From the NCBI GenBank assembly GCA_963664815.2, contig CAXXHB010000003.1, positions 2,528,001 through 2,592,000 of the forward strand: DNA of 64,000 bases, in the 5' to 3' direction. The stretch comes from Spirochaetota bacterium. GTDB lineage: Bacteria > Spirochaetota > UBA4802 > UBA5550. Positions 9,568 through 29,345 of this stretch are shown here, piece after piece. Both the position numbers and the translations under genes were made by a program. The notes beneath the pieces were generated by a model. It was not told the DNA's origin. It did no database searches and saw only the letters and a program-made list of their open reading frames with translations. How positions within the stretch are numbered: the stretch's first letter is position 1; the number at the start of each line of letters is the position of its first letter.

Positions 9568-9569
9568 TA

Positions 9570-12128: not shown

Positions 12129-12707
12129 ATGCATTTTAAAATAAAATCAGCAAGTCTAATAGCGGCCCTAATCTTGATCTTTGGAGCAGTTGCTTTCTTT
12201 GCAAATGAAAGCACCGCGCAGGGAAAGACATACAAGATAGGAGATAAAGGCCCAGCCGGAGGTCGGGTATTTTATGACAAAGGTAATTCTGATGACGGCT
12301 GGAGATATTTGGAAGCAGCACCAGTTGATCAGAGCGTTAAATCAGAATGGGGTTGTTATGAAAAATCAATACCCGGAGCACAAGGTACAGCCATAGGGAC
12401 TGGTAAAAGCAACACGGAGGCTATAGTTAAAAGTTGTGGAGAAGCAAAAATAGCAGCTGAATTATGCACTGCATACAGAGGCGGCGGAAAAAGTGACTGG
12501 TTTTTGCCATCTAAAGATGAGCTTAACCGAATGTATATGAATTTGTATAAAAACGGTGTTGGCGGTTTCGTTGGTACCCTCTATTGGAGTTCGTCTGAGA
12601 ACGATGCTGGCAGCGCCTGGGGGCAGAATTTCTACAGTGGCGCCCAGGGCGACGGCAATAAGGACAACACCTTCAGAGTTCGGGCTGTCCGGGCTTTTAT
12701 CAATTGA
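12129..12707 (+). CDS. secreted DUF1566/CLec-fold protein, putative DGR target (copy 1)
   Basis: ggag RBS before ATG 12129; DWFLPSKDEL, YWSSSE..AW...F, RVRAVRAF. Confidence 0.85.
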   Translation: MHFKIKSASLIAALILIFGAVAFFANESTAQGKTYKIGDKGPAGGRVFYDKGNSDDGWRYLEAAPVDQSVKSEWGCYEKSIPGAQGTAIGTGKSNTEAIVKSCGEAKIAAELCTAYRGGGKSDWFLPSKDELNRMYMNLYKNGVGGFVGTLYWSSSENDAGSAWGQNFYSGAQGDGNKDNTFRVRAVRAFIN

Positions 12708-12851
12708 AATATTTAACTATTTTTACTTTCCCGCTGTAGCGGGTTCAAAAATTTTTAATGGTATCCTATGGCGCTTACTAAACTCAAGGATGAATTGCAA
12801 TAAGGTACGAGCTTAAAATATCAGCAGGAAATATCCGAATACATTGAAGAT

Positions 12852-13188
12852 AAGTATACCCGGAGTTTTTGAGACGTTGCATAAAATCGCCATTTACGGT
12901 CTATCCGCTGACTGGACAAATAATGATTTTACTGGATTATTTTTTTCCGGTAAAATCACCGGATTTTTACTGTATGTTATTTCAAAGACCGGAAGAAAAC
13001 GGTATTCAAATTCCTATGACTGTGCTGAGTATAATCAAAGTATGTTCTGCCCGATATCAATGGTTTTGTCCAACAAAAGTCTTAACATAGCTGCTGTCTG
13101 AAATTTAAAATTATCTGCTTAATATTTTTATACCGCTGATAAAGACCAGCGGTTTTTTTGGGCAGCTACGTTAAGACTTCTATAAGTT
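12852..13188 (+). repeat. repeat B plus repeat A (inverted attC-like hairpin, 13068-13188)
   Basis: gtccAAC-aaaagtcttaacatagctgc...gcagctacgttaagactt-ctataa-GTT. Confidence 0.9.
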
Positions 13189-13445
13189 ATGTGAAGGCGT
13201 TGTATTTTTTGTAGATTTCAACATATTTATCTATCTCGTTGAGTGAAAAAAAGTGAATTTTTTACTTGACTATAGATATGTTTATTACGATTATATTTGT
13301 AAATGGAGTTTATGTTTTGAGAGGTAGTTTTATGATAAAAATATTTACAGAAATAGAAGATATTTAACTGGCAAACGTCGTGTAAGCATGACGTTGAAAT
13401 TGCTATTTTGAAGCTTGAATAGGACAATTTGTAAAAAATTCATTT

Positions 13446-13472
13446 AAAAAAAGACCCAAAGGGTCTTTTTTT
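13446..13472. terminator. intrinsic terminator-like hairpin
   Basis: aaaaaagaccc-aaa-gggtcttttttt at the stop of 13471-14202. Confidence 0.65.
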
Positions 13473-14202
13473 ATACTCCCATTTTTGGCTTAAACTCACT
13501 TTTTTCAGTAAATCTTCTTGCTAATGCTTGGAACCAATCTCCAAAATGCACTGATTTATGCTTATTTCTCCTGTGATTTATGTATATTTCATATATTTTC
13601 CAATTTTTTATAATAAGGCTTCCTATCAAATCAACAACTAAATTTTCATCGTACACATGAGAATAAACACCTCTAGAAATTATTTCATAAACATTAATTA
13701 TATGAAGTAATGCTTCTCTGATTTTTTTTCCATCTTCTGTCATTTGAAAAAAAGATTGATCTTTTTCAAGTTTATAACCACCTTTTTCGTCAATATCACA
13801 AATCCACGAATGCAATATTTCTTCAGTTAGAGGCTTTCTTTCTTCAATTAATTCATCAAGAGTGATAATTTTATTTTTATAATATTCTTTCTGGATATCT
13901 CTGATTTCTTTTCTGTATGTTTGTATTTCTTTGACTAATTTGGGCAATTCAGTCATAGTTGTTTCTCTTCTCTTGAGCCATACATTTTTTTTTGCTTGAT
14001 AGACACCTAAAAGTAATGTAGATACAACTGCAAGGGCGGTAAAAGTTTTAACAACAGGTTCGTTAAATTTTTGGAATTTATATATTGTATAAACATTATA
14101 CAATACAATGGAAAGACCTATACAAATTACCAATATGATTATGAAGTAAACAACACGATCGATGAATTGTTCAATTTCACTTTTTCTTATACTTTTCAAC
14201 AT
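13471..14202 (-). CDS. membrane protein, DUF4760-like
   Basis: two N-terminal TM segments; IINVYEIISRGV...YDENLV...I..RR C-terminus. Confidence 0.65.
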   Translation of the reverse strand: MLKSIRKSEIEQFIDRVVYFIIILVICIGLSIVLYNVYTIYKFQKFNEPVVKTFTALAVVSTLLLGVYQAKKNVWLKRRETTMTELPKLVKEIQTYRKEIRDIQKEYYKNKIITLDELIEERKPLTEEILHSWICDIDEKGGYKLEKDQSFFQMTEDGKKIREALLHIINVYEIISRGVYSHVYDENLVVDLIGSLIIKNWKIYEIYINHRRNKHKSVHFGDWFQALARRFTEKSEFKPKMGV

Positions 14203-14463
14203 TATTTTCTCTCATTTTTGTAATAGTATGTTGTTATCATTGTAAGGCATAAATAATATATCAAGCATCTTATTTTAAATAAAGTGAAATGTCCACATGA
14301 GATAATTGGACAATTTTTTTATGTAAAACGTTTAGTCCAGCCTCCTTCCTGACCAAAAGAATGGGAACGGGATATTCTCCCTGAAACCCGAATAGACGAG
14401 TGGACCATTCATTTAACCCGTCAAGTTGGTCTTGAGTATCAAAAATATCATAAGGGGGATTGA

Positions 14464-15549
14464 TTGTCAATGTTTTATGGGATAGATCTTCACACAGATA
14501 GTTTTAAAGCAGCAGTTTTAGGAGAAAACACGGACGAACTGACAATGGAAACAGTCAGTTTAAAAACAGAAGCATTTAGGAGATTTTTAAGTAAACTGAT
14601 GATTGAGGATTATATAGTCGTTGAGGCATCAACCAATACATTCTGGTTTGTGGAACAGGTTAAAGAATATGTAAAGGAAGTCTATGTTGTAGATCCTTAC
14701 AAGTTTTCAATAATATCGAATTCCAGGAAGAAGACTGATAAGATTGATGCCATTAAACTGGCAAAGAAATTGAAATATTATGTATGCTACGATAAATCAT
14801 CGGATGAATTTCCGATAATCTACGTTCCATCAAAGGAAGTTAGCGAGTTGAGAAGCATGTTTGTAACGTATGAAATGCTCAAGAAACAGGCATGTATGAC
14901 AAAGAACCGTATCAGGTCACTTTTCCGTCAGAATGGTATTTTCGGATTTTCTAAGGAAAATCTTTCATACAACCACATACAGGACAGGATCAGGAGTCTG
15001 CCTGTCAGTGAGGCATTTTTAGTTCAAATCAATATTTTGCTATCAACGCTCAATTCTCTTGAAAATGAAAAAGAGAATATAAAGAAAGCAATTCTGAAGA
15101 AAGGGAAGATATTTTACAGAGAGATACGGATTCTGACAAGTATCCGCGGCATAAGCCCTTTTCTTGCTATCGCAATAATGTCAGATATTGCAGATATTAA
15201 CAGATTTCCCAGTGCTAAAAAACTATGCTCGTATTTAAGAACAGCTCCCCGAATAGATGCATCAGGGAACACAGCACATGTTGGTAAGGTGAATAAACAG
15301 TCAAGGACATTGACTGCCAGTTTAATGACAGAGAGTATAAAGCATTTCATTGATTCAAGTGACAGGCTTTATAAGTTTTATTTTGAAAAAAGGAAAGGTA
15401 AGAATGCCGGAAAGGTTCGTGTTGCAGTAATGCGCAAGATCATCGTTATCATTTATAATATGCTGAAAGAGAATAAAATGTATTACTATACTGATGAAAA
15501 AAACCATGTAGCAAAGATGAAACAATATGAGTCAGCATTAGCTGCATGA
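14464..15549 (+). mobile_element. IS110-family transposase
   Basis: YGIDLH, VVEAS and KTDKIDA (DEDD RuvC domain); LTSIRGI...DINRF..AKKLCSY..SG. Confidence 0.93.
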
Positions 15550-16189
15550 TTTTTTATAAATATTTTTAAAAAGTGTTGATTTTCATCATAGACGACGCCG
15601 CTCATGTCGACGCAGCTCAATACAGGCAGTGCATCGCCTGTTATATGCCGACAGGGGGTCACTGAGCCAGCCGAAGTGCAAACATCCTGTTTGCCCGACA
15701 GAACCGCCTGAGCAACAGCCCGACACAATATTAATGGATTTTAAATTACCGGATTTATAATTTCAAGAATAATTCGTATGTAGAAATTTGAATAAATAAA
15801 CAATTGATTCTTTATAACAACCAATATATCTGCTTTTAAATTACTGTTAAACGATACTTTCCGGAATAAATTATCAGTATTTCTTAATCATCAGAATAAA
15901 AGTATCCATTCATGATCTTCCTACATCCACCACAATCATAATACATCAATATGCAGATAATAATCTACAACCACTCTGCTTCGCCGGAGGTGAACGATAC
16001 CTCACCGGTTCAAGAATCTCTTTCACTACAAGCCTTCCGGTTTTGCATGCAGGGCAGCATGAAAGGTTTTTACCTGTGACGCGCAGATAGATTTAACTCC
16101 ATGTCTGCGGTATACTTTCATTCTTCTTTTGAATTTCGTAAAACTCGCGGCATGCCGCAACAGCCTTCTTTTTTTTCCGGTGAGAGAGA

Positions 16190-16397
16190 ATTCCGAAGTA
16201 CCAACAGGGCAAACAATCTTGCCCTTTGCCGGATGTTTCTTGGTCAGCCTCTGGCGGAGCAGGATGAGCGGAGCAAAGAGCTTCTTGAGGATACAGCTTT
16301 CCTGGTCTGGAAATATTTCAGGATTGATATAACTCTCTGCAGGGAGTGTGGAAAAGGACACATTCATTATATCCATGGCTTGTCGACTTACGGTTAG
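16190..16397 (+). pseudogene. C-terminal fragment of an IS91-like (Y2) transposase
   Basis: NRANNLALCRMFLG...IDITLCRECGKG zinc-ribbon-like tail directly upstream of repeat B. Confidence 0.55.
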
Positions 16398-16448
16398 CTG
16401 TTATAAAGAAGTATATCCGCACAGATTTAAAAACTGTTTTATAGAGAG

Positions 16449-16793
16449 GATAAGTATGCCCGGAGCTTTTAAGATTTTGCATAAAATCGCCATTTACGGT
16501 CTCTCCGCTGACTGGAGAAATAATTATTTTACGGGATTATTATTTTTTCCGGTAAGATCACCGGATTATTACTGTATATTATTTCAAAGACCGGAAGAAA
16601 ACGGTATTCAAATTCCTGTTATGAGTATTCTGAGTATAATCGAAGCATATTCTGCCCGATTCCAGTGGTTTCGTCCAACAAAAGTTTTAACATGGCTGCT
16701 GTCTGAAGATTGAAATTATCTATCTAATATTTTTATACCACTGATAAAGACCCGCGGTTCTTTTGGGCAGCTACGTTTAGACTTCTATAAGTT
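16449..16793 (+). repeat. repeat B plus repeat A (16673-16793)
   Basis: same repeat as 12852-13188; ends in GTTATGTGC. Confidence 0.9.
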
Positions 16794-17282
16794 ATGTGCA
16801 GTACTACCGCGTTTTTTAAAAAATCTGGGAATAAATCTTCCTGTATCCTTACAATATTTTTCATACTCGTTAGGGAAAATAGTTTTTAAATCTTTTTCTT
16901 CTTTTATAATTAGCAAATGCCAAATAGGGTGTAGAATCAATGCCCAAATAATAAATATCCAATTATTTAATAAAAATGCCAAACCAAAATTAAAAAAAGT
17001 TAAAAATGCTGCATACAAAGGATGCCGAAAATATCTCAACGCTCCTGTAGTTATTAATGCCTTACCTCGTAATTTTGGATTTAATGAAACAAGACTCCAA
17101 GTAATTATTATAATGCTAACAATAGTTAATAACACAAAAATAGACACAGGAACAAAATCTTGATTATTAAACACTTGAGGAATATTTAACAAATTTTTTA
17201 AATAAAATGAGATTATTAATAATGCTAAACTTATTAATAATCCAATAGGCCCCGACCCAAATATTCTATTGAAATTATTCAT
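16785..17282 (-). CDS. isoprenylcysteine/phospholipid methyltransferase family membrane protein (cassette)
   Basis: LITTGALRYFRHPLY, EEKDL..IF..EY..Y..TGRFIP; reads through the R'' box. Confidence 0.85.
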   Translation of the reverse strand: MNNFNRIFGSGPIGLLISLALLIISFYLKNLLNIPQVFNNQDFVPVSIFVLLTIVSIIIITWSLVSLNPKLRGKALITTGALRYFRHPLYAAFLTFFNFGLAFLLNNWIFIIWALILHPIWHLLIIKEEKDLKTIFPNEYEKYCKDTGRFIPRFFKKRGSTAHNL

Positions 17283-17317
17283 ATAATTCTCCTTTTCAAA
17301 TATTGCTTGCGGTAGTA

Positions 17318-18080
17318 GTCTGCCAGGTCAGGGAACCCGTACCCCCTTTTCCCAATAAGAACCGTATGTGAAAGTTTCACCACAGGCACTTCCTCCGGAC
17401 GCCCTTTATGCGGCTCAAGCCGTCTAAAGCTGATTATACAATCAGCCGCTGTTATCTGATTTTATTCTCATTTTTCTATAGCAGAAATAATCAGAATCTT
17501 CTTTTAAAAATGGGCTCCTGTCAAGACATATCATTCTGTGCCGTACAATTTTAATGTGTCCCGCAGTAAAGAGAATCTCCTCATCAGAACATAAAGTTTG
17601 AGTCTCTTTTCCTATGCGTTTTACAGTACCGGTTTTTAAGCCATAAAGAATTTTTCATCGTATGTCTGGAACTGCCCCATCTCCATAGAGCCTGAAAAAG
17701 AACAGTATTGGAATTTTTAAAAGGATTCCTTTTAAAACCATTCCCCGGAGCTTTTGAGACGTTGAATAAAATCGCCATTCACGGTCTATCCGCTGACTGG
17801 AGAAATAATTATTTTATGTGATTTTTATTTTTTCCGGTAAAATCACCGGATTTTTACTGTATATTATTTCAAAGACCGGAAGAAAACGGTATTCAAAATC
17901 CTATTTATACTTGTGCTTAGTATTATCGAAGCATGTTCTGCCCGATGTCAGTGGTTTCGTCCAACAGAAGTCTTAACATAGATGCTGCTTGAATTTTAAA
18001 ATTATCTGCTTAATATTTTTATACCGCTAATAAAGATTAGCGGTTTTTTTGAGGCAGCTACGTTAAGACTTCTATAAGTT
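17318..18080. mobile_element. composite repeat: group II intron 3' remnant, linker, repeat B, repeat A
   Basis: intron DV/DVI and RT C-terminus (LFQALWRWG..H..K) on the minus strand; same junction as 20558-21470 and 37932-38643. Confidence 0.85.
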
Positions 18081-18432
18081 ATATGATTTTTTTGGTCCCT
18101 TCATTACACGAAAATCCTCTATTTTTTATTCTTTTTTCTTTTTTATCTTTAACAAATTCAAGTTTATAATGTAACACTGAAAGTATCGGTGTCAGAGTAT
18201 TTAAGCTGATGTTAGTACTTTTTCCTGATCTTAGATTTTGAATCATTGTTGGAGAAACACCTGATTCTTCTGCTAGTTTTCTGACAGAAATTTTATTTTC
18301 TTCCATAGCTTCAATAAGAAATTCAGAAATAAGAAATTTTTCATATCCTTTTTCAAAATCAGCTTTCCATTCCGGGTCTTGCATGAGTTTATCAAATGTA
18401 CTTAATTGTTCGGGGGCTTTATTCTTCTTCAT
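18079..18432 (-). CDS. XRE HTH antitoxin
   Basis: ISVRKLAEESGVSPTMIQNLRSG; stop codon inside the R'' box. Confidence 0.85.
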   Translation of the reverse strand: MKKNKAPEQLSTFDKLMQDPEWKADFEKGYEKFLISEFLIEAMEENKISVRKLAEESGVSPTMIQNLRSGKSTNISLNTLTPILSVLHYKLEFVKDKKEKRIKNRGFSCNEGTKKII

Positions 18433-18811
18433 AATATTTTCCTTCTTTAACTCTTCTTATATAACTTTCTTTATAATTTAATGCTTTAATCTTTTCGTTT
18501 TCAGGTAATTTATCTGATTTTTTCCGAAATGCGTTTGTTACTATGATTGTTTTACCTGTAACGAAGAATGATAAAAATCTTTCCGGTTGAGGTTTAAATG
18601 CGTAAATTTTATCTCCTTCATATCGGAATTTCGTAATGTCATTGATTTTTCCATTATCACCCATTCTCTTGAGAAGGTAGAAAACTTTCTTTTGCATTTC
18701 TGTATCAAGTTCTAATAAATAGTCATAAGCTTGACTATTTCCGGATTCATCATAATACCATTCGATGGTATAAATTTTGCCTTTGTATGCGATGTAGTCT
18801 TTTTTACTCAT
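18419..18811 (-). CDS. RelE/ParE (Gp49-like) toxin
   Basis: KIYAFKPQPERFLSFF...IIVTNAFRKKSDKLP; overlaps the antitoxin gene. Confidence 0.85.
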   Translation of the reverse strand: MSKKDYIAYKGKIYTIEWYYDESGNSQAYDYLLELDTEMQKKVFYLLKRMGDNGKINDITKFRYEGDKIYAFKPQPERFLSFFVTGKTIIVTNAFRKKSDKLPENEKIKALNYKESYIRRVKEGKYYEEE

Positions 18812-18816
18812 AATCT

Positions 18817-18845
18817 AGTGTATCAATATATTTGCACAATGTCAA
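18817..18845 (-). promoter_or_regulatory. sigma70 promoter, probably giving a leaderless TA mRNA
   Basis: TTGACA-17-TACACT ends 5 nt before ATG 18811. Confidence 0.7.
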
Positions 18846-18896
18846 TAGTTTTTTTAGTTTTATTTCAGTGAAAAGTTTATAAAAATACGTCAAGCA

Positions 18897-19134
18897 GAGT
18901 ATCTGCCTGTTATATGCCGGTAAAGGCAGGTGCGCCGATATTGCAATTTTTAAAGTGTTTTGATATACCGGAAAAGTCAATCCTGTTATCGACCAGGGCT
19001 CTCCAGCGGTTTCATCCAACAAAAGTCTTAACATAGCTGCCATCTGAAGATTAAAATTATCTGCTTAATATTTTATACATCTGATAAAGAATGACGGTTC
19101 TTTTGGGGTAGCTACGTTTAGACTCCTATAAGTG
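18897..19134 (+). repeat. variant repeat B plus repeat A (19014-19134)
   Basis: divergent upstream segment ending gcggtttcatccaac, then the typical hairpin; core is GTG instead of GTT. Confidence 0.8.
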
Positions 19135-19154
19135 GGGCGCAGTATATTGAAATA

Positions 19155-19364
19155 TTAATCTATAAGTTTTATAGATATTATTTTAATATCACAAATATCA
19201 TTACCTTTCTCATATGCGGCATCAAATTGTATTTCTTTAATGGTTGTAACGATAGGGTCTATGTTAAATTCTTTTATTGGAATAGTAATTGTATAGGTGT
19301 TATCAGATGGTTTTTTAATAGAATATTGGTCAGATTCATTCAAATAACTCCAAATATTAATTAA
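19155..19364 (-). pseudogene. 3' fragment of a cassette gene truncated by IS701
   Basis: short AT-rich ORF abutting the IS701 end at 19365. Confidence 0.55.
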
Positions 19365-20501: not shown

Positions 20502-20557
20502 AAGCTCCTTACATTAACCAGCCATGCTATGTATAACTATTGTAAATTTTCTTACTA

Positions 20558-21470
20558 GTCTGCCAGGTCAGGAAGCTCGCGCCTCCTTTCTCCCATAAAA
20601 ACCGTACGTGAAAGTTTTACCACAGGCACTTTCTCCGGTCGCCCTTCATACAGCTCAAGCCGTCTAAAGCTGATTATACAACCAACCGCTGTTAGCTGTT
20701 TTTATTCCCGTTTTTCTATAGTAGAAATAATCAGAATCTTCTTTTAAAAATGGGTTCCTGTCAAGACTTATCATTCTGTGCTGCACAATTTTAATGTGTC
20801 CCGCAGTAATGAGAATCTACTCATCAGAACAGAAAGTTTAAGCCCCTGTTACCTATGCGTTTTAAAGTACCGGTTTTTAAGCCATAAAGAATTTTTCATC
20901 GGGTGTCTGGAACTGCCCCATCTCCATAGAGCCTGAAAAAGAACAGTGTTGTGATTTTTAAAGAATTCCTTTTAAAACCATTCCCCGGGAGCTTTTAAGA
21001 CGTTGAATGAAATTGCCATTCACAGTCTATCCGATGATTGCATAAGTACTTCATTTATAATTATTATCAGATAATCTAATAATTGTCTGGACCCTGATTT
21101 ACCTGATTACAGGATGGTCAGGATTCACCTGCCAGTTCCGGAGACTAAATCATGATAATCTTTTAATCCTTTAATCCCGATTCAGATAGCTGTAGTATCA
21201 GGTTTTTACAAGATTTTTTGTTTTTCCGGTAAAATCACCGGATTCTTACTGCATGTTACTTCAAAGACCGTGAGAAAACTGTATTCAAATTCCTGTTATG
21301 ACTATTCTGAGTATAATCGAAGCATGTTCTGCCCCGATATCAGCGGTTTCGTCCAACAAAAGTCTTAACATAGATGCTTCCTGAATTTTAAAATTATCTG
21401 CTTAATATTTTATACATCTGATAAAGAATGACGGTTCTTTTGGGCAGCTACGTTAAGACTTCTATAAGTT
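20558..21470. mobile_element. composite repeat (intron remnant, B, A) with a REP-like insertion
   Basis: as 17318-18080, with an extra palindromic segment at about 21085-21186. Confidence 0.85.
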
Positions 21471-21485
21471 GTACGTCGTTTGATT

Positions 21486-23382
21486 TTATTTTATTGACTC
21501 CATTAGAATGTAAAAATATTTACCTTCCCTAGTTTTATGTAATTGGTACCATGCTTCTAATGTTTTTTCTTTCATTACACCAATTTTTTTAAAAACTTCA
21601 TAAGAAAATTCCAATGGAGCCAATCCTGTAGCAGTTATTAAATTTTCATCAACAACTACAGGATCATTCACATAAAAATTAATTCCTGTATAATCGGAAC
21701 AAAACATTTTTAGAACCTCTTTGTCATTACTCGTATGCTTTCGATTATCCAGCAGTCCTTTTTGCGCTAATGCTATTGTAGCTCCACAAATTGCAGCGAC
21801 TACAACTTTTTTATTAATCACTTCTGCTACTATATTTAATATTTGATCTTCCCCTGATATAGTGGACATTAAGTTAAGCCGAAAATATAATAAATTTGGA
21901 GGCTTACAATGTCAGAGAGAAGTAAATACAGCCCGGAATTTAAGAAAGAGGCTGTAGAATTATTAAGAACCAGCGGAAAGACATCACTTGAAATAGCGAA
22001 TGATCTTGGGATTAAAAGAGATAATCTATTGCGCTGGAATAGGGAAATTGAAACAGAGGAAAGGAATTCCGGGACAATAACAATAAATCCTCAGGATAGT
22101 GAAGAAATTAAACGACTCAAGAAGGAAATGTTGATTCTTAAGCAGGAGCGTGACATTCTAAAAAAGGCTCTGGGCATATTCTCGAAACCACAAGAATGAA
22201 ATATGAATTCATCAAGGAACAGAGTACTGAATTTCCAGTATCGAGGATATGCCAGATTATGGATGTGAGTAAAAGCGGTTATTATGCCTGGCTGAAAGCT
22301 CCAAAGAGTATAAGAGGGCTTGAAAATGAAATACTATTGGAGAGGATAAAATCATCACATGAATCAAGCGGAGAGAGCTATGGCAGCCCCAGAATTCATC
22401 AGGATTTACTTGAAGAAGGTATTTTCTGCGGAATACATAGGGTTGAGAGGCTGATGAATGTGAATGGGATTCATGCAAAGACAAAGAAAAAATTTAAGGC
22501 AACCACTGATTCGGGTCATTCTTTGCCAGTGTCTGAGAATATACTAGACAGGAATTTTACTGTTGAAGAGAAAGATAAAGTATATGTGTCAGATATAACC
22601 TATATCTGGACATTAGAAGGCTGGCTGTATTTATGTATAGTAATGGATTTATTTTCCAGAATGATAGTCGGATGGTCAATGGCAAATCATATGAGAGCTG
22701 AACTTGTTGAAGATGCTTTTAACATGGCCTGTATGAGAAGAAATCCGGGCCCTGGCCTGATATTCCATTCTGATAGAGGTAAACAATATGCCAGCAAATC
22801 CTTCAGGGAATTACTTGAATCAAAGAAATGTATTCAGAGTATGAGCAGGAATGGCAATTGCTGGGATAATGCCTGTGCTGAATCTTTATTTCATTCGATG
22901 AAAACAGAAGAATTTTATTTTAATATTTACAAAACAAGGAATGAGGCTAAGAGAAGTATCTTTAGATATATTGAAATATTTTATAACCGTAAAAGAAGGC
23001 ATTCACATCTGGGTTATAAAAGTCCGGAGATTTTTGAAAGATTAAATCTTAAAATAATGGCTTAACAAAGTGTCCATTTTTTCGGGGGAACATCAATTTT
23101 TTGATTATTTTCATCCATCCAAGTATCGGCTCCCGGTAAAATGAGTAAGTCATTTTCCTTAAATTCAACATCAGCGACATCTTTATCTGGAGTAATAATA
23201 ATCCCTCCCATCGTTTTTATAGGTTTTAAGTTATCGCCTATTTTTATTAATGATATTTTTTCTTTGCTTTTATCTAAATATCTACCACTGTTTAATTCAG
23301 CAATTATAAATCCGATTTCCCAATCAGCTAATGTATCTAATATATACACATAGCAATTTCTACATTTGGTTTCTTTATTCAT
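21486..23382 (-). pseudogene. DJ-1/PfpI family cassette gene interrupted by IS3
   Basis: LADWEIG, LILPGA (5' part) and VAAICGAT (3' part) flank the IS. Confidence 0.88.
21844..23095 (+). mobile_element. IS3-family element (orfA 21909-22199, orfB 22196-23065)
   Basis: TG...CA inverted repeats, 3-bp ATT duplication, DDE motifs (SDITY, HSDRGKQY, DNACAE). Confidence 0.95.
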
Positions 23383-23617
23383 TTTTCCTCCAATAAATCC
23401 TTTCTTTATTGTCCTGGCCAATTCTTCAGCTTGAACAAAGGCTAATCCAATTATTGTTACAAACAAATAAGTTTTAGCTTCATAATTTTATTCTCAGGCG
23501 GTTTTGTTCAAGCTGTGTTATGTGCTGAAAACACGATTACAAAAAGTTTTGTGTAAGCGAAACGAATGTTGAGCTTGAATGCACTTATTTTACTATTATT
23601 CATTTTTTATTATATTC

Positions 23618-26398
23618 TTAATCTATTTTTTGTCTTAACTGGCAGAAACCGTTGTAATATACTCCATCATGATTTAATGGTTTGTAAGCGTCAAATTAAC
23701 CCCATCTTGAAAAAAGATCAATGATATATTACAATACCCTTCATTAAAAAATGGAGGAAGAGATGAGTAAAAGAATTGAATATCAGAAACGCGATATGTC
23801 AAGCATGGAGAAACATATAGCCGCCTGGGAACAAAGCGGGATATCACAAGTTGAGTATTGCAGAGAGAATAAAATACCTCTGTCAACCTTCGGCAACTGG
23901 AAATCAAAAGTAAGTAAAAAATCTCAGAAAGAAATACCATTTATTGAACTGCAGGGGAATTTTTCATATCAGGATGAATATTTTGAATTACTGCTCGATG
24001 ATGGCATGACTTTGAGAATCCGTGAAACCATCCCTGTATCGCAATTACGAAATATCATTCTTGCCATACGGAGGTAGTGATGCTCAGTTTGCAGAGAGAA
24101 ACGAGAATATTTCTTCATCCCGGCAAAACAGATTTTCGGAAGTCAATCAATGGTTTATCCGTCTTTGTTCAGGAGCATATGAAGGAAGACCCTTTCAGCG
24201 GGAATTACTATGTGTTCTGCAACCGGACAAAAAATATGCTGAAGATATTATACTGGGACAGGAATGGTTTCTGCCTGTGGCATAAAAGGCTGGAGGAGGA
24301 TAAATTCCGCTGGCCCCGGATAGCCGAAGATGTCCATGAGATTACCCGCGAGGAATTCCGGTGGCTGTTACAGGGGCTTGACTTCTATAATGCTCATAAA
24401 ATCCGCCGTTATGCAAGCGTGATATAAAAATTAATTGCAATCATGAGGGCATGTTATATGATGTACTCATGATTGCAATGCCCGACAACCTTCCTGATGA
24501 TGTAAACGAGCTCAAGAAAATTATTTCAAACCTGGCAAATGAATACGAAAAAGAAATTCAATATCTTAAAGAGAAAAATAAATTTTTACTTCAAAAGTTA
24601 TTCGGCCGTAAAAGCGAGAAGCTGACTCCCGATGATATTCTACAGGGCCGGTTGTTTGATGAATCAGAATTCAGCTCTGATGAGAATGAAAACGCAGAAG
24701 ATGATTCACCTGAAAAGCTAACCGTTGTTTCATCTCATACACGCCGGAAGACAGGAAAGAAACCTCTTCCGGAATCACTCCCTCGTGTTGATGTTGTACA
24801 TGATATCTCCGAAGAAGAAAAACAGTGTGCCTGCGGGTGCGAGATGAAACGCATTGGGGAAGAAGTTTCTGAAAAGCTTGATATGATTCCTGCGAAAATC
24901 CAGGTGCTTCGTCATATCCGATATAAATATGCCTGTAAAAACTGTGAAGGGAGCGAAAGTGATGAAGCTCCGGTAAAGATTGCGCCATTGCCTCCGCAGA
25001 TTATACCGCAGGGGATTGCAACACCAGGACTTGCGGCATGGGTGCTGGTGAGTAAATTCTGCGATGCGCTTCCTTTTTACCGGCAGGAAAAGCTTTTTTC
25101 CCGGATTGGTGTTGATATTTCACGAGCGACTTTTTGTAACTGGTCCATTATTACACATAGAGGCAGTGAACGGCTGCTCGAACTGATGTGGAGAGATATT
25201 CTTGCGTCTCGGCTTGTTGGCATGGATGAGACGCCGGTGCAGGTTATGAAAGAGCCAGGCCGCAAAAATACAACAAAGTCATACATGTGGCTGTTCCGGG
25301 GTGGAGAAGAAACCCGACCAATTGTGATATTCCGGTATGCTCCGACCCGGGGATCGGAATTCATAAACAGTGAATTTGCGGATTACGAAGGTGTCATCCA
25401 GACCGACGGCTATCAGGGATACAAAACTCTGGGTAAAAAAGAAAAAGTAACACATGCTGTATGCTGGGCACATGTCCGGAGAAAATTCATGGAAGCGATG
25501 AATGGCACCAGTCAGTCTTTTTCACATTCTATAGTATCGATGATAAAAACGCTTTATGATGTAGAAAAAGAAATACGTGAGAATAAATATAACCATGAAG
25601 AGATCAGACAGGTGCGCAATGATAAATCACGTCCAGTAGTGGAAAAGATAGAACAGCAATTGAAAAAGCATGTTCACAGTATTGCACCGGGAAGTCTTGC
25701 CGGTAAGGCAATCTCATACTCATTAAAGCTGTGGCCCCAGTTGTGTGTATATCTTGACAACCCTATTATTCCCATCGACAATAATCATGTTGAAAATGCA
25801 ATCCGCCCTTTTGTGGTGGGACGAAAAAACTGGCTTTTTTCCGGTAGCCCGCGCGGTGCCCATGCCAGTGCCGGATTATATAGCATAATAGAAACGGCAA
25901 AGGCAAATGGTCTTGAGCCATACTGGTATCTTAGATACCTGTTTGAAAAATTACCTGCCTGTACAAGTGATAATGAAATCCGGTCAATTATGCCGAATAG
26001 AATTGATCCTGAAGTTATCAGTAAACTCAGAGGTGGGGTTAATTAAGCACATACAATGGTTTTATCCCAGAAATCAGATATTTTTCGTTCTTTTTAAAAT
26101 CAATGGGAATTAAATCACATGATGTTGTTTTATAAAAAAATATAATCTTTACTGTTTTTGATTTTTCACCTTTTATTAATTCAAGAATTTCAAAAGTAAC
26201 TTCTTGTTCAGAAATATACTTCTTTTTATTTTTATCTTGGGATGTTTGTGTTTCTACTTTAATAACTTTGCCTTTAAAAACTATATCATGACGCATGACT
26301 TGTTTTATTTCATCTGGAGAATCACAAGGGCATGCGTTTAAAATGTAATTACTAAAAACTATAATTAAGATAGATAAAAAAAGCTTATAGTATTTCAT
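23618..26398 (-). pseudogene. TIMP/NTR-like secreted cassette gene interrupted by IS66
   Basis: signal peptide, ACPC, DIVFKGKV; frame continues KPLNHDGVYYNGFCQ after removing the IS. Confidence 0.75.
23684..26054 (+). mobile_element. IS66-family element (tnpA 23751-24077, tnpB 24077-24427, tnpC 24451-26046)
   Basis: gtaagcg / cacatac ends, 8-bp duplication aatggttt, TnpB D.RK..GL, TnpC DNNHVENAIRP. Confidence 0.96.
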
Positions 26399-26478
26399 TA
26401 TTAAACCATTTTCATAAATTGATTAAGTATCTATAATATACGGCCACGGATGGTCGTTGAAAATAGTCTCGCGCTTTT

Positions 26479-26512
26479 GTTCAACGTCTAGCTTACACGA
26501 AGTTGGCACATA
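26479..26512 (-). repeat. partial attC (L'/R' arm)
   Basis: gttcaacgtctagcttacacgaagttg resembles atataacgccttgcttacacgacgttg. Confidence 0.65.
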
Positions 26513-26518
26513 GGGCCT

Positions 26519-26588
26519 CCGGTAAAATTACCGGATTTTTACTGTATGTTATTTCAAAGCGACCGGGAGAAAACGGTATTCAAATTCT
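26519..26588 (+). repeat. fragment of repeat B
   Basis: ccggtaaaattaccggattttt...aaacggtattcaaattc. Confidence 0.8.
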
Positions 26589-27906
26589 ATTCTTTCAAGT
26601 TGTTTATATATTTACCGAAATGTTTATCTTCTTTGAGTGTATGATTTACAACCCAGTCGATTAGCAATATCTGTATTTTGAACATTAAAAAAGTTTTACT
26701 CATTTTGCTTTCATTGATTTCGTTTTTCAATTGCTCAAATTGAACAGTAAATCTTCTATGTTGTATTTTCTGATGATCGATAAATGGATATTTATTATCA
26801 TGAAGATATTTTTCTTCAGTGGTAAAATGCTTAGAAACATAATCATCAAGAAACAAAATGAATTTTTCAATTTCAGATTTTTTATTTTCCTGGTCTACCA
26901 TATGTAAAAGTTTGATGGAGTTAGTTAATAATTCATAATGCTGCTTGTCTATTTCCTCGTTCCCAACTTCAAAATATGAACTCCATTCCAATTGCTGAGT
27001 TAATTCCTTTGTTCCTTCATGTTCTCCGGTTTTTAGGAACATTTTACATCTTTTAAGATAAACTTTTGCTGGTTGGTCATCAGGATTTAGTTTTACACAT
27101 TTATCGAGAAGTTCTTTTGCTTCTTCAATCTGTTTGAAGTGATAATATGCCAATGCTTCTTCAAACATCTGTTTCGTTTCCAGTTTTAGTTTTTTAATTT
27201 CCGGCTCATCCTGATCAAATACTTCATAGACAGACTGAGGCTGGTATTTGCCTTTAACTAATACTCTATCTATGAAACGAATACAATGTTCAGAAGCAAC
27301 CGCTATGTTTCTTAGAGTGTGTTCACTAATAAGTAATTTTACTCCATACTTTTTTGTTAAACTTTCAATTCTTGATGCAAGATTTACTGAATCACTAATT
27401 ACCGTACTTTCCATACGTGAAAAACCACCAATGGTTCCAAGCATCGCAAGGCCAGTATTAAGACCAATTCCAATGTTAATAGGTTTGTAACCGGCCCTTT
27501 TTCTACCTTCATTATAATGTTTGAGCTGCTTTAACATTAATAAAGCACAATGAAGAGCATCGTTTGCATCGTTTGGGAAAATGGCCATAATGGCATCACC
27601 GATAAATTTGTCGATTATCCCATCCTGTACATTGATTATTGGTTCCATTTGACTGAAATATGAATTAATAAAATTAAAATTTTCTTCCGGTGATAGCGTT
27701 TCTGAAAGTGTTGTAAAATCTCTAATATCAGTAAATAGAATTGTAATTTTTTTTTCTATCTGATCTCCTAGTTTCACATCGATGATATTATTCTTACCAA
27801 TTAATTTTAATAATTGATAAGGTACAAATCTATCATATGAACTGATAATCTTTTTTATAAGTTCCGGATTATTTGTAAGATCATTTTCATCTTTCATATC
27901 ATTCAC
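26587..27906 (-). CDS. class III adenylate/guanylate cyclase with TPR-like linker and bacteriohemerythrin domain
   Basis: FTDIRDFT, DKFIGDAIMA, DSVNLASRIE; IDKQH..HFTTEE..H...H..W..NH..ED. Confidence 0.9.
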   Translation of the reverse strand: MNDMKDENDLTNNPELIKKIISSYDRFVPYQLLKLIGKNNIIDVKLGDQIEKKITILFTDIRDFTTLSETLSPEENFNFINSYFSQMEPIINVQDGIIDKFIGDAIMAIFPNDANDALHCALLMLKQLKHYNEGRKRAGYKPINIGIGLNTGLAMLGTIGGFSRMESTVISDSVNLASRIESLTKKYGVKLLISEHTLRNIAVASEHCIRFIDRVLVKGKYQPQSVYEVFDQDEPEIKKLKLETKQMFEEALAYYHFKQIEEAKELLDKCVKLNPDDQPAKVYLKRCKMFLKTGEHEGTKELTQQLEWSSYFEVGNEEIDKQHYELLTNSIKLLHMVDQENKKSEIEKFILFLDDYVSKHFTTEEKYLHDNKYPFIDHQKIQHRRFTVQFEQLKNEINESKMSKTFLMFKIQILLIDWVVNHTLKEDKHFGKYINNLKE

Positions 27907-28033
27907 GGCTTATTCTCTAATTTAATATACAATGTAATTTAACTTTTTCAATAGATATGCACGTTAATTCTTTGGAAATAATTTTGATTCAGTATAGTTT
28001 TTATTATTAGCAGAATAAAAGTTAAGCACGTCG

Positions 28034-28371
28034 ATCTGCCAGGTCAGGAAGATCGCGCCTCCTTCCCCCCATAAATACCGTACGTGAAAGTTTTACCACA
28101 GGCACTTCCTTCGGTCGCCCTTTTTACGGCTCAAGCCGTCTAAAGCTGATTATACAACCAACCGCTGTTAGCATTTTTATTCCCGTTTTTTATATCAGAA
28201 ATAATCAGAATATTCTTTTAAAATGGGTTCTGCCCGATTCCAGTGGTTTCGTCCAACAAAAGTCTTAACATAGATGCTTCCTGAATTTTAAAATTATCTG
28301 CTTAATATTTTATACATCTGATAAAGATTAGCGGTTTTTTTGAGGCAACTACGTTAAGACTTCTATAAGTT
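28034..28371. mobile_element. shortened composite (intron 3' end fused to the end of repeat B, plus repeat A)
   Basis: deletion at the gttc microhomology near 28228. Confidence 0.85.
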
Positions 28372-28617
28372 ATATGAAGGCGGCGCGCTATACAGCAACC
28401 AGTCGCAGCAATACAAGGAAGTATTGCTGCGTTTATAAGAAACCGATTTTACCACAGAACAACATAAACATTTTTATTAATTTCATATCAACAGAAAAAG
28501 TCAATATCAATCTTGACATAGCAGGAAGTATAGAGCAATAGTTTCATATTCATAATAAAACGTGTGATGAAGAGTCATTCATTCATTCATTCATTAATAA
28601 ATATTCCGGAGGAGAAT

Positions 28618-29205
28618 ATGCATTTTAAAATAAAATCAGCAAGTTTAATTGCGGCTTTAATCATGATCTTTGGAGCAGCAGCTTTCTTTGCAAATGAAAG
28701 CAACGCGCAGGGAAAGACATACAAGATAGGGGACAAAGGCCCTGCCGGAGGCTGGGTATTTTATGACAAAGGTAATTCTGATGACGGATGGAGATATTTG
28801 GAAGCAGCACCAGTTGATCAGACTACAAAAGATGGTGCAGAATGGAGTTGCTATAAAAAATCAATACCCGGCGCACGAGGTACAGCCATAGGGACAGGTA
28901 AAAGTAATACAGAGGCTATAGTTAAAAGCTGTGGAGAAGCAAAGATAGCAGCTAAACTATGTACTGCATACAGAGGCGGCGGAAAAAGTGACTGGTTTTT
29001 GCCATCGAAAGATGAGCTTAATCTGATGTATGCAATTTTGTGTGTAAAAGGTGTTGGCAGTTTCGCTGATAACCATTATTGGAGTTCGTCGCAGAACCTT
29101 GCTGGCCTCGCGTGGTACCAGAGTTTCGGCAATGTCCTCAAGAAGGGCACCATCAGGGAGGACAACGTGCTTAGGGTTCGGGCTGTCCGGGCTTTTAACA
29201 ATTGA
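28618..29205 (+). CDS. secreted DUF1566/CLec-fold protein, putative DGR target (copy 2)
   Basis: paralogue of 12129-12707 with a strongly divergent C-terminal segment. Confidence 0.85.
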   Translation: MHFKIKSASLIAALIMIFGAAAFFANESNAQGKTYKIGDKGPAGGWVFYDKGNSDDGWRYLEAAPVDQTTKDGAEWSCYKKSIPGARGTAIGTGKSNTEAIVKSCGEAKIAAKLCTAYRGGGKSDWFLPSKDELNLMYAILCVKGVGSFADNHYWSSSQNLAGLAWYQSFGNVLKKGTIREDNVLRVRAVRAFNN

Positions 29206-29345
29206 ACTATTTAACTATTTTTCTTTTCCCGCGATAGCGGATTCAAATTTTTTTTAATGGTATCCTATGGCGCTTACTGAATTCAAGGATGAATTGCAAT
29301 AAGGTACGAGCTTAAAATATCAGCAGGAAATATCCGAATACATTG

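What the first reader, a model, noticed from the sequence alone, without database searches (positions are those of the whole stretch)
12129..29260. Two DUF1566/CLec paralogues with DGR-like variable regions embedded in the array, without RT or template
Seen: 11970-12960 and 28447-29460 are near-identical except the last ~55 codons. There many changes hit positions 1-2 of NNC/NNT codons (gat/ctt, agc/ctc, tac/ggc, agt/aat, gcc/ctc) between fixed tattggagttcg, tgg, cag, ttc and gttcgggctgtccgggctttt. A small GC hairpin follows the stop (cccgc-tgta-gcggg; ccgc-gata-gcgg). Established: DGRs mutate template adenines, typically in AAC codons, into CLec-fold C-termini and use an IMH plus a downstream hairpin; remote targets are known in spirochaetes. 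Some differences (gag/cag, ggc/gtc, a one-codon indel) do not fit one simple template. Inference: remote DGR targets carried inside an integron array, linking two diversification systems.
Basis: partly seen in the sequence, partly recalled or inferred. Interest (0 to 1): 0.78.

Follow-up and report, generated by a model that had tools for sequence, protein, structure and literature searches.

The report
Orphaned DGR target genes in cassettes
Two secreted lectin-like genes still carry the marks and docking signals of a retroelement that rewrites protein tips, but this genome lacks the rewriting machinery, so they are frozen relics of a known kind of system.

Summary
Genes A (12129-12707) and B (28618-29205) are 89-97% identical in their flanks but only 65% identical in a ~110-nt C-terminal block.

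That block is a diversity-generating retroelement (DGR) variable repeat (VR). Metagenome contigs found through its 3' 21-mer include complete DGRs: Lcl_C target, bAvd, template repeat (TR), RT. Against the best-fitting TR (L074), A differs at 20 of 43 TR adenines and 9 of 98 other bases.

A and B also keep the VR-type 3' end, the conserved spacer, a GC hairpin and the first ~12 nt of avd.

The genome (96% complete, 3 contigs) has no matching TR, no Avd and no intact DGR RT. The only DGR-type RT is a C-terminal fragment beside a different, FGE-type target. Contigs from 3 runs of 2 studies show the same A VR. The genes are therefore orphaned targets, not demonstrably active remote ones.

The "integron" is an array of attC-like palindromic repeats. 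There is no integrase in the window, and the nearest integrase-like genes score below the IntI cut-off.

Orphan DGR targets in spirochaetes and DUF1566-class targets are already published.

The parts
12036..12065 (+). Promoter-like site upstream of gene A (TTGACA, 18 nt, AATAGT). The same TTGACATAGCAGG lies upstream of B at 28513-28525.
   Evidence: (consensus scan, 10 of 12 matches). This is a consensus match only; no expression data were available.
12098..12105 (+). (TCAT)n tetranucleotide repeat between the promoter-like site and the ribosome-binding site of A. There are 2 units here and 5 units upstream of B (28575-28594).
   Evidence: Contigs of runs X2, X3 and X5 carry 3 extra units at 12097.
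12129..12707 (+). Gene A, 192 aa: N-terminal hydrophobic signal-like segment plus an Lcl_C/DUF1566 C-type-lectin-like domain.
   Evidence: Lcl_C 40.1 bits, cut-off 34.9. AlphaFold model pLDDT 87.9. Best PDB match is the Legionella Lcl C-terminal domain 8q4e_A, E 5.8e-7, TM 0.77 on the target.
12558..12698 (+). Variable repeat (VR) of A: 141 nt homologous to the template repeat of the L074-type DGRs.
   Evidence: mismatch at 20 of 43 TR adenines against 9 of 98 other bases (p = 1.6e-6). core 115 nt: 18 of 40 against 5 of 75. GC3 0.78 against 0.32 in the rest of the gene.
12678..12698 (+). Invariant GC-rich 3' end of the VR (GTTCGGGCTGTCCGGGCTTTT), with the VR-type base C where the TRs have G or A (IMH-like).
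   Evidence: exact copies only in A and B, one mismatch in C; 86 metagenome stretches share it. Searches show the VR versus TR difference.
12699..12729 (+). Conserved spacer after the VR, including the stop codon (…AATTGAAATATTTAACTATTTTT…).
   Evidence: the same AACAATTTAACTATTTAAC-type spacer occurs in L007, L009 and L017; 43 of 80 metagenome loci pass a loose motif test.
12730..12743 (+). [quoted passage not shown]
   Evidence: One search gives the coordinates. Searches show at least 12 different GC-rich stems, mostly with 3-4-nt loops, at the same place in related loci. The terminator scan did not call it. The function of such hairpins is described in the abstract of PMC3240598.
12768..12779 (+). 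Stub of the avd gene (ATGGCGCTTACT), all that is clearly left of the accessory gene.
   Evidence: One search aligns it with L009, L017, L074, L070 and L046. Intact Avd is 115 aa in L074 (bAvd 76.7 bits). The 58 nt that follow (12778-12835) recur elsewhere in the genome, so they are probably not avd.
12846..13190 (+). Genome-wide repeat of about 300 nt ending in an attC-like imperfect palindrome (13079-13177: GTCTTAAC ATAGCTGC … GCAGCTAC GTTAAGAC), with an internal terminator-like hairpin at 13132-13153.
   Evidence: copies genome-wide; 26 copies of the palindromic end; terminator-like site; 18-bp terminal stem in 12 copies; only 1 compensatory pair.
28618..29205 (+). Gene B, 195 aa, paralogue of A.
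   Evidence: Lcl_C 26.8 bits, below the 34.9 cut-off.
29053..29196 (+). Variable repeat of B, 144 nt, one codon longer than A and TR1. The invariant 21-mer is at 29176-29196.
   Evidence: 21 of 43 TR adenines against 16 of 98 other bases, 3-nt gap (p = 1.3e-4); 20 of 40 against 10 of 75. One search gives the coordinates.
29228..29240 (+). Hairpin after B (CCCGC GATA GCGG), followed by the avd stub at 29267-29278.
29345..29670 (+). The same ~300-nt repeat with its attC-like palindrome (29555-29652) after B.

Best explanation
A and B, and paralogue C elsewhere in the genome, are orphaned target genes of a DGR of the DUF1566/CLec2 class.

Their ancestor sat in a cassette of the form target-avd-TR-RT, as still seen in metagenome loci L070, L074, L081 and L086. 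In such a cassette the RT copies the template repeat into cDNA, misreads adenines, and the cDNA replaces the variable repeat at the C-terminal ligand-binding face of a C-type-lectin-like domain. Homing is guided by the GC-rich VR end (IMH) and a downstream hairpin.

In this lineage avd was cut down to about a dozen bases and TR-RT were lost. The remaining unit (promoter, gene, VR, IMH-like end, hairpin, avd stub) became joined to an attC-like repeat and now exists in two copies 16 kb apart.

Shown:
- homology to complete DGR loci in both coding and non-coding parts;
- an adenine-specific mismatch pattern against the best template;
- absence of a matching TR, of Avd and of an intact DGR RT from this genome.

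Inferred (my odds about 0.5): A and B share the same truncated layout after the hairpin yet differ mainly at template-adenine sites. At least one rewriting therefore happened after the truncation, in trans, in an ancestor or donor that still had a complete element.

Inferred: the proteins are secreted binding proteins whose specificity is now frozen.
For: 1. Complete DGRs with the same VR scaffold.
- The 21-mer scan gave 86 metagenome stretches, of which 80 were fetched.
- 4 of the 80 have a cis TR matching their own VR at 117-119 of 120 positions when TR adenines are allowed to differ.
- Their order is Lcl_C target, 115-aa bAvd, TR, then an RT of about 400 aa with IGNLTSQ and YVDDFV motifs.

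2. Adenine rule against TR1 (the L074 template, 141 nt):
- A: 20/43 adenine sites against 9/98 others (p = 1.6e-6).
- B: 21/43 against 16/98 (p = 1.3e-4).
- C: 21/43 against 16/98.
- Cognate controls: L074 24/43 against 3/98; L086 20/43 against 1/98; L081 12/43 against 2/98.
- Of 16 distinct TRs tried, L074's fits all three paralogues best.

3. Third codon positions are kept, which is the opposite of ordinary divergence. GC3 is 0.70-0.82 in the VR cores against 0.28-0.32 in the rest of the genes.

4. Non-coding conservation. The spacer, the hairpin position and the avd start are shared with loci whose proteins are only 63-68% identical to A.

5. L009 keeps a 40-aa Avd N-terminus nearly identical to L074's Avd. 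tblastn with that Avd finds residues 1-39 in L065, whose downstream sequence matches L009's.

6. No machinery in the genome.
- The RVT_1 search finds 3 RTs: a group II intron RT/maturase (TIGR04416, 436.8 bits), an unclassified 566-aa RT, and a 148-aa fragment 56% identical to residues 232-357 of an FGE-type DGR RT.
- No bAvd.
- No TR by BLASTN, by the 21-mer with up to 4 mismatches, by the exact-or-adenine scan, or by the TR-core pattern.

7. The A VR is covered by contigs with 0 other letters in 3 of the 4 runs laid, from 2 studies.

8. The fold is C-type-lectin-like.
Against: - The fitting template is heterologous. It comes from unrelated metagenome contigs, not from this genome.
- B and C have 10 of 75 non-adenine mismatches in the core, and B has a 3-nt length difference. 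Their own templates differed from TR1, or they have since decayed.
- The adenine test is not fully independent of the fact that loop residues vary, because template adenines sit in the loop codons. The kept third positions are the control for that.
- The genome is 96.2% complete. A DGR on an unassembled phage or plasmid cannot be excluded.
- The runs were available only as contigs, which drop rare variants, so low-level ongoing diversification cannot be ruled out.
- The trans-rewriting step rests on the shared truncated layout. Recombination or gene conversion between cassette alleles could give the same picture.
Confidence: 0.8

Rival explanations
1. Active remote targets. A cognate avd-TR-RT exists in this organism, on an unassembled or episomal element or a resident phage, and still rewrites A and B in trans.
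For: - A and B keep an intact reading frame, the VR-type 3' end, the spacer and the hairpin.
- Remote targets more than 100 kb from the RT are documented, and avd-TR-RT work in trans (passages of PMC5758913).
- The TR core 24-mer occurs on 19 viral contigs.
- Of 15 related metagenome loci with the spacer motif and at least 2,000 nt downstream, only 2 have TR and RT in cis. Stand-alone targets are therefore the common form.
Against: - No matching TR, no bAvd and no intact DGR RT in 3 contigs at 96.2% completeness.
- The TR core was found in 1 of 401 phylum genomes, in none of the other 3 same-genus genomes and in none of the 39 same-family genomes sampled.
- The A VR is identical in contigs of 3 runs from 2 studies.
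- The viral TRs fit A, B and C worse than L074's does.
Confidence: 0.07
2. No rewriting in trans ever occurred. This rivals only the inferred step of the best explanation. A and B are alleles that were each diversified in cis in different donors with complete DGRs. Their shared truncated downstream layout arose later, by recombination or gene conversion with the repeated downstream element.
For: - B's VR is one codon longer than A's. TR and VR of one element are the same length, so one TR cannot have written both.
- VR length variants exist in the family, for example L078.
- The downstream ~300-nt repeat is present in many copies and offers homology for exchange.
- None of the other 7 same-genus genomes has a close orthologue (best 71% identity), so the units look acquired.
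Against: - The unique stretch between the hairpin and the multi-copy repeat (12708-12845) is 92.1% identical between A and B. That is the same level as the upstream and coding flanks, as expected for one ancestral truncated unit.
- Non-adenine sites of the VR differ at 16/98, near the background level, while adenine sites differ at 23/43.
Confidence: 0.4
3. Ordinary paralogue divergence. Diversifying selection on the binding loops of a lectin-like domain produced the pattern, with no retroelement involved.
For: - The fixed residues (YWSSS, W, Q.F, VRAVRAF) are the conserved core of the Lcl_C domain in all 16 aligned homologues.
- Other Lcl_C genes of this genome also vary in the loops.
Against: - Third codon positions are kept and are C/T-rich in an AT-rich gene.
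- Mismatches track the adenines of a real TR.
- The non-coding spacer, hairpin and avd start are homologous to complete DGR loci.
- Seven other Lcl_C genes of the genome have C-terminal GC3 of 0.28-0.56 and lack the 21-mer.
Confidence: 0.03

Closest known systems
[quoted passage not shown] 2016, PMC4891356; passages read)
   Same: - A spirochaete with target genes that keep a VR but have no RT or TR in the genome.
- The relic is recognised by comparison with a TR from another strain (their example: 21 mutations, 19 at TR adenines).
- Interpreted as gain and loss of DGRs.
   Different: - Their targets are, from my recall, FGE-sulfatase/TvpA-type. DUF1566 does not occur in the paper's text.
- Here the class is DUF1566/CLec2.
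- Here the fitting TR comes from metagenomes, not from a sister strain.
- Here the relic units are duplicated and each is followed by an attC-like repeat.
DUF1566/CLec2-class DGRs, category 'd' of Wu et al. 2018 (PMC5758913; passages read), exemplified by the Legionella LdtA DGR
   Same: - Short secreted or lipoprotein targets consisting of little more than a DUF1566 domain, with the VR at the C-terminus.
- This class accounts for 14% (51) of the surveyed DGRs.
- Non-adjacent and remote targets are known.
   Different: A and B have no DGR at all in their genome. A has no lipobox cysteine (sequence), whereas the L086 target has one.
Bordetella phage BPP-1 target recognition elements: IMH plus hairpin/cruciform (Guo et al. 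2011, PMC3240598; abstract read)
   Same: - A GC-rich VR end followed shortly by a small inverted repeat.
- The stem sequence varies between elements while its place is kept.
- In BPP-1 these elements suffice to make a heterologous gene a target.
   Different: - Function is not tested here.
- The stems of A and B are short: 5 and 4-5 bp, against 6-11 bp in most intact relatives.
- The hairpin lies about 30 nt after the VR end rather than immediately after it.
Chromosomal integron cassette arrays and CALINs (attC clusters lacking an integrase); spirochaete integrons (recalled; Wu et al. 2012 appears only in the reference list seen)
   Same: - Repeats in one orientation, each an imperfect palindrome of about 100 nt with paired ends resembling R''-L''…L'-R' and an R'-like GTTAAGA.
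- The repeats separate small accessory genes.
- Integrase-like tyrosine recombinases lie about 4 kb from two other arrays.
   Different: - No integrase in the window.
- The recombinases score below the curated IntI cut-off and match the IntI model in two pieces that leave out model positions 180-234.
- The repeat is nearly identical between copies and carries about 230 nt of extra conserved sequence.
- Genes lie on both strands.
- Copy A has no repeat directly upstream.

Membership tests
Diversity-generating retroelement (complete, functional) | DGR-type reverse transcriptase (IGNLTSQ-type motif 4, YxDD) encoded in the genome | tested here: not met
   Of the 3 RVT_1 matches, one is a group II intron RT, one is an unclassified 566-aa RT, and one is a 148-aa C-terminal fragment lacking model positions 1-145. 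A search with the L074 RT finds only that fragment (33% identity) and the intron RT.
Diversity-generating retroelement (complete, functional) | Template repeat matching the VR except at adenines | tested here: not met
   Own genome: BLASTN with word size 7, the 21-mer with up to 4 mismatches, an exact-or-adenine scan of both strands of all 3 contigs and the TR-core pattern find only the paralogues.
Diversity-generating retroelement (complete, functional) | Accessory gene avd | tested here: not met
   bAvd (PF22296) has 0 matches in the own genome at E <= 0.1. Only a 12-nt start stub remains after A and B.
DGR target gene (variable repeat written by mutagenic homing) | VR differs from a TR almost only at TR adenines | tested here: met
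   Tested against a heterologous TR (L074). A: 20/43 against 9/98. B: 21/43 against 16/98 plus a 3-nt gap. C: 21/43 against 16/98. Cognate controls have 1-3 of 98 non-adenine mismatches. The criterion is clearly met for A. B and C are looser.
DGR target gene (variable repeat written by mutagenic homing) | IMH-like GC-rich VR end that differs from the TR end, plus a downstream hairpin | tested here: met
   A, B and C have C where the TRs have G or A in …CCGGG[C]TTTT. Hairpins lie at 12730-12743 and 29228-29240, at the place of the hairpins in TR-bearing loci. C has lost the hairpin. Function was not tested.
DGR target gene (variable repeat written by mutagenic homing) | VR lies in a C-type-lectin-like ligand-binding domain | tested here: met
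   Lcl_C: A 40.1 bits (cut-off 34.9), B 26.8 bits (below cut-off). Model pLDDT 87.9. Top PDB match is the Lcl C-terminal domain 8q4e_A, E 5.8e-7. C-type lectin domains follow only at E > 0.1.
DGR target gene (variable repeat written by mutagenic homing) | Ongoing diversification (VR heterogeneity within a population) | tested here: inconclusive
   Contigs of 3 of the 4 runs laid cover 12482-12813 with 0 other letters. The fourth has no cover at 12510-12671. Contigs cannot show rare variants, and no raw reads were served.
Integron (cassette array) | Integron integrase IntI | tested here: not met
   TIGR02249: no match over the 265-bit cut-off in the genome and none inside the window. The two array-adjacent recombinases score 220.7 and 164.6 bits. 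One passes NF040815 (XerA/integron-integrase type, 235.3 > 220).
Integron (cassette array) | attC sites: imperfect palindromes with R''-L''/L'-R' pairing, one per cassette, in one orientation | tested here: inconclusive
   There are 26 copies of the palindromic end, all + strand within the window. The terminal stem is 18 bp in 12 aligned copies, but with only 1 compensatory pair because the copies are nearly identical. Rfam has no hit. No attC covariance model was available.
Integron (cassette array) | attI site and cassette promoter next to the integrase | not tested
   Not examined.

The most novel reading that the evidence does not exclude
The unit (gene, VR, IMH-like end, hairpin, attC-like repeat) is a portable, DGR-ready target module.
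- It is moved and duplicated by an integron-like recombination system, independently of any retroelement.
- It keeps its docking signals.
- It can be rewritten in trans whenever a compatible avd-TR-RT, for example a phage-borne one, is in the cell.
A and B would then record at least one such rewriting after avd was truncated. Two diversification systems, cassette capture and retroelement hypermutation, would be coupled through a shared pool of target cassettes.
Probability: 0.2. Interest if true: 0.75.

Novelty: new member of a known kind. Interest (0 to 1): 0.45.

Why it matters
The result turns a suspicious sequence pattern into a firm annotation: two, and genome-wide three to four, relic DGR targets of the DUF1566/CLec2 class in a genome without a working DGR. 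A near-cognate template was recovered from metagenomes.

It shows that DGR history can be read from a target alone. The markers are kept third codon positions, a VR-type 3' end, the spacer, the hairpin and an avd stub.

It adds an observation that could be followed up. Among related metagenome loci with enough flanking DNA, stand-alone targets far outnumber complete elements (13 of 15). Here such stand-alone units sit in attC-like repeat arrays.

If the truncated units were indeed rewritten in trans, target genes could circulate as cassettes apart from their retroelement. I found no paper describing that. The searches were 'diversity-generating retroelement' with 'integron' and 'cassette' (15 papers hold the terms, 10 listed) and with 'attC' (7 papers, 6 listed). 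Only listings were seen, except for passages of PMC4891356.

Tried and rejected
- BLASTN of both units against the genome found paralogues and the downstream repeat, but no template.
- The viral-contig scan with the VR 3' 21-mer gave 0 hits.
- The FGE-type DGR of relative G003 (L025) was tested as a possible template. Best exact-or-adenine score was 82 of 120, so it is unrelated.
- A DNA search with the VR in the 5 genomes holding L006-L009 and L017 found, in 4 of them, one full-length match each (the gene itself), no full-length match in G005, and no second copy anywhere. These are incomplete MAGs.
- The 40-aa Avd stub of L009 gave no Pfam hit and no BLASTP alignment to the FGE-type Avd. It was identified instead by near-identity to the L074 Avd.
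- I first read 12778-12860 as decayed avd. I withdrew that after finding the 58-nt element 12778-12835 elsewhere in the genome.
- Rfam at gathering and E-value thresholds gave nothing for the repeat or the hairpin.
- Read laying: only Logan contigs were served. Run X5 has no cover over 12510-12671. One X1 contig joins 12524 to 12675 with sides of 24 nt, probably another family member. No conclusion was drawn from either.
- Complex prediction, the search for homologous proteins, the search of protein representatives and the protein-atlas search were not used, because the family assignment did not need them.

Full report
**1. What is there**

The window is G000:C3:2528001-2592000. The genome has 5.2 Mb in 3 contigs at 38% G+C, with 96.2% completeness.

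Two units share homology, at about 11970-13180 (A) and 28447-29660 (B). Each holds:
- a promoter-like site;
- a (TCAT)n run;
- a gene of 192 aa (A) or 195 aa (B);
- about 470 nt of shared downstream DNA.

Identity between A and B is 89-97% on both sides of a block at 12570-12677. Inside that block it falls to 64.9%.

A matches Pfam Lcl_C (formerly DUF1566) at 40.1 bits, above the 34.9 cut-off. B scores 26.8 bits, below it. A model built on 16 homologues (pLDDT 87.9) matches the Legionella Lcl C-terminal domain (8q4e_A, E 5.8e-7). C-type lectin domains follow only at E > 0.1.

A third paralogue, C, lies at C3:3207124-3207696. A frameshifted fourth lies near C3:3203012-3203400.

**2. Is the block a DGR variable repeat?**

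Internal evidence. GC3 is 0.78, 0.82 and 0.70 in the 27-28 variable codons of A, B and C. It is 0.32, 0.31 and 0.28 in the rest of the same genes. Ordinary divergence would do the reverse. Seven other Lcl_C genes of the genome show C-terminal GC3 of 0.28-0.56, and none has the 21-mer.

External evidence. Relatives in 19 public genome loci are mostly Spirochaetota and Leptospirales MAGs, 29-67% identical in protein. Several keep the same nucleotides at the VR end. They also keep the non-coding DNA after the stop: a spacer of the type AACAATTTAACTATTTAAC, a small GC hairpin, then …AAATTTTTTAATGG….

A metagenome scan with GTYMGGGCTGTCCGGGCTTTT returned 86 stretches, of which 80 were fetched. In 4 of the 80 (L070, L074, L081, L086) a second copy of the VR lies about 550-600 nt downstream. 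It matches at 117-119 of 120 positions if adenines in the second copy may differ, and at 96-106 of 120 exactly. A fifth locus, L046, has a shorter template.

These loci read Lcl_C target, 115-aa Avd, TR, RT:
- target: Lcl_C 44.2 bits;
- Avd: bAvd 76.7 bits; NCBIfam DivGenRetAVD 67.8 bits, below its cut-off of 80;
- TR: translates as …NNANNAWNQNFNNGDQNNNNKNN…;
- RT: about 400 aa with GLPIGNLTSQ and YVDDFV.

**3.

I used the L074 template (TR1, 141 nt).

| Sequence | Mismatched TR adenines | Mismatched other bases | Fisher p |
|---|---|---|---|
| A | 20/43 | 9/98 | 1.6e-6 |
| B | 21/43 | 16/98, plus a 3-nt gap | 1.3e-4 |
| C | 21/43 | 16/98 | 1.3e-4 |
| L074 (cognate control) | 24/43 | 3/98 | |
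| L086 (cognate control) | 20/43 | 1/98 | |
| L081 (cognate control) | 12/43 | 2/98 | |

Among 16 distinct TRs, TR1 fits A, B and C best. The set comprised 2 from metagenome loci, 1 from a phylum genome and 13 from viral contigs. In the 115-nt core the counts are A 18/40 against 5/75, B 20/40 against 10/75 and C 20/40 against 10/75.

A, B and C carry C at the position in …CCGGG[C]TTTT where the TRs carry G or A. That is the VR-type (IMH) rather than the TR-type end.

Caveats:
- The template is not from this genome.
- Template adenines coincide with loop codons, so the kept third positions are the necessary control.

**4. What is left of the element next to A and B**

After the stop come, in order:
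- the spacer;
- the hairpin, at 12730-12743 in A and 29228-29240 in B;
- ATGGCGCTTACT, which aligns with the start of avd in L009, L017, L074, L070 and L046.

L009 keeps a 40-aa Avd N-terminus that is almost the same as L074's.

Beyond about 12790 the homology to avd is not convincing. The 58 nt at 12778-12835 recur at C3:2201695. From 12846 a repeat of about 300 nt found in many places in the genome begins.

The terminator scan does not call the hairpin. Terminator-like sites lie further on, at 12946-12963 and 13132-13153. In the related loci at least 12 different GC-rich stems occupy the same place. That agrees with the finding in BPP-1 that stem structure matters but stem sequence does not (abstract of PMC3240598).

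**5. Is there machinery in the genome?**

No. RVT_1 finds three places:
- a group II intron RT/maturase (TIGR04416, 436.8 bits);
- a 566-aa RT that reaches no curated family cut-off;
- a 148-aa fragment at C3:3836557-3837027.

The fragment is 56% identical to residues 232-357 of the RT of a complete FGE-sulfatase-type DGR in a relative (L025). It sits directly after an FGE-type target gene, with avd, TR and the RT's N-terminal half gone. That TR type is unrelated to the DUF1566 VR (82 of 120 at best).

Other results:
- bAvd: no match.
- L074-type RT: only the fragment and the intron RT.
- TR: none by four methods.

In the phylum sample, the TR core (up to 2 mismatches) occurs in 1 of 401 genomes (G064, with the start of an RT next to it). 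It occurs in none of the other 3 same-genus genomes and none of the 39 same-family genomes. These are samples, so the finding is 'not found in those searched'.

None of the other 7 same-genus genomes has a close orthologue of A or B. The best is 71% identity, in G327.

**6. Is diversification going on?**

Five runs hold the stretch, all kept as contigs. I laid 4 of them.
- Contigs of X1, X2 and X3 (2 studies) cover 12482-12813 or more with 0 other letters.
- X5 has no cover over 12510-12671.
- No variant letter is listed between 12467 and 12709.

Contigs cannot show rare variants. This shows only that the same A VR is the major form in three data sets.

**7. How it most likely came about**

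The simplest history has four steps:
- a DUF1566-type DGR (target-avd-TR-RT) existed in an ancestor or donor;
- avd was truncated and TR-RT were lost;
- the rest became joined to the repeat;
- the unit was duplicated.

A and B share the same layout after the hairpin, at 92.1% identity over the unique stretch 12708-12845. Yet they differ at 23 of 43 template-adenine sites and at 16 of 98 other sites. I therefore think at least one VR was rewritten after the truncation, in trans. Trans action of avd-TR-RT and remote targets are established (passages of PMC5758913).

Against this, B is one codon longer than A, so one TR cannot have written both. Exchange between cassette alleles could mimic the pattern. 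I put this step at about even odds.

Stand-alone targets seem common in this family. Of 15 metagenome loci with the spacer motif and at least 2,000 nt downstream, 2 have TR and RT, 1 has a near-full avd only, 1 has an avd stub, and 11 have neither. The avd and RT were sought with one tblastn query each, so divergent copies could have been missed.

**8. The 'integron' context**

The downstream repeat ends in a palindrome of about 100 nt: GTCTTAAC ATAGCTGC … GCAGCTAC GTTAAGAC. It has an internal terminator-like hairpin.
- 26 copies of this end occur genome-wide. The 9 in the window are all on the + strand.
- 12 aligned copies give an 18-bp terminal stem, with only 1 compensatory pair.

Copies cluster in at least six regions. 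Two clusters lie about 4 kb from tyrosine recombinases that score 220.7 and 164.6 bits on the integron-integrase model (cut-off 265). They match it in two pieces that leave out model positions 180-234. One passes NF040815, 'site-specific tyrosine recombinase/integron integrase'.

The window has no such gene, and it holds many IS transposases and genes on both strands. Copy A has no repeat directly upstream.

The array is therefore attC-like, and possibly a CALIN-type cluster, but an integron is not established.

**9. Comparison with what is known**

- DUF1566/CLec2 targets make up 14% (51) of surveyed DGRs. Half of them are short proteins.
- T. denticola isolates without RT and TR keep target genes regarded as remnants. 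One was assigned to a foreign TR type by 19 of 21 mutations at adenines.
- The present case is a further member of that kind, in another target class.
- I did not find its cassette-like setting described (listings only).

**10. Verdict**

- The DGR origin is strongly supported.
- Present activity is not supported.
- The integron context is only partly supported.
- Interest is moderate.

Noticed in passing
window 12098-12105 and 28575-28594: A (TCAT)n run lies between the promoter-like site and the ribosome-binding site. It has 2 units before A and 5 before B. Contigs of runs X2, X3 and X5 have 3 more units at the A locus, and two of them otherwise match A with 0 other letters. The targets in L074 and L086 have a similar run upstream (it translates as FIHSFIHSFI). 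This may be a slipped-strand on/off switch.
   Followed up: partly
G000:C3:3836557-3838578 (outside the window; L003): A decayed FGE-sulfatase-type DGR. The target gene is intact and is followed, after 160 nt, by only the C-terminal 148-157 aa of the RT. avd, TR and the RT N-terminal half are missing. An intact counterpart is L025 in relative G003.
   Followed up: yes
window 37932-38006 (-), 33322-33417 (-), 20562-20658 (-): Group II intron domain V/VI matches. One is above the Rfam gathering score (41.5 bits) and two are below it (33 bits each), all inside the repeat array. A group II intron RT/maturase lies in another array at C3:3195077-3195739. This recalls the attC-targeting group II introns, which I cite from memory only.
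   Followed up: no
window 9537-10475 (+): A third Lcl_C protein in the window, 312 aa and 29.2 bits (below cut-off), lies 1.6 kb upstream of A and just after an fn3 protein (8149-9567). Its C-terminus has GC3 of 0.56 and ends …RFRAIRSF, but it lacks the 21-mer. It may be an older relic.
   Followed up: partly
window 12778-12835 and G000:C3:2201695-2201752: A 58-nt element, 88% identical between the two places. It lies between the avd stub and the large repeat in A and B, and in an intergenic region elsewhere. Its nature is unknown.
   Followed up: no
L027-L106 (metagenome loci): Among relatives that share the VR 3' 21-mer and the spacer and have at least 2,000 nt downstream, 13 of 15 have no TR or RT in cis. 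L090 keeps a near-full avd without TR or RT within 8 kb. Stand-alone targets seem to be the rule in this DGR family.
   Followed up: partly
G000:C3:1364233-1365933 (L002 1117-2817): A 566-aa RT that reaches no curated family cut-off (best: group II RT model at 70.4 bits, Drt3a at 59.8 bits). It lies next to another cluster of the attC-like repeats at C3:1.367-1.390 Mb. It could be a defence-type RT.
   Followed up: no
L128-L146 (viral contigs): The TR core CAGAACAACAACAATAAGAACAAT is exact in 19 viral contigs whose TR ends differ from the A/B type. The CLec2 template core is shared between phage and cellular DGRs.
   Followed up: partly
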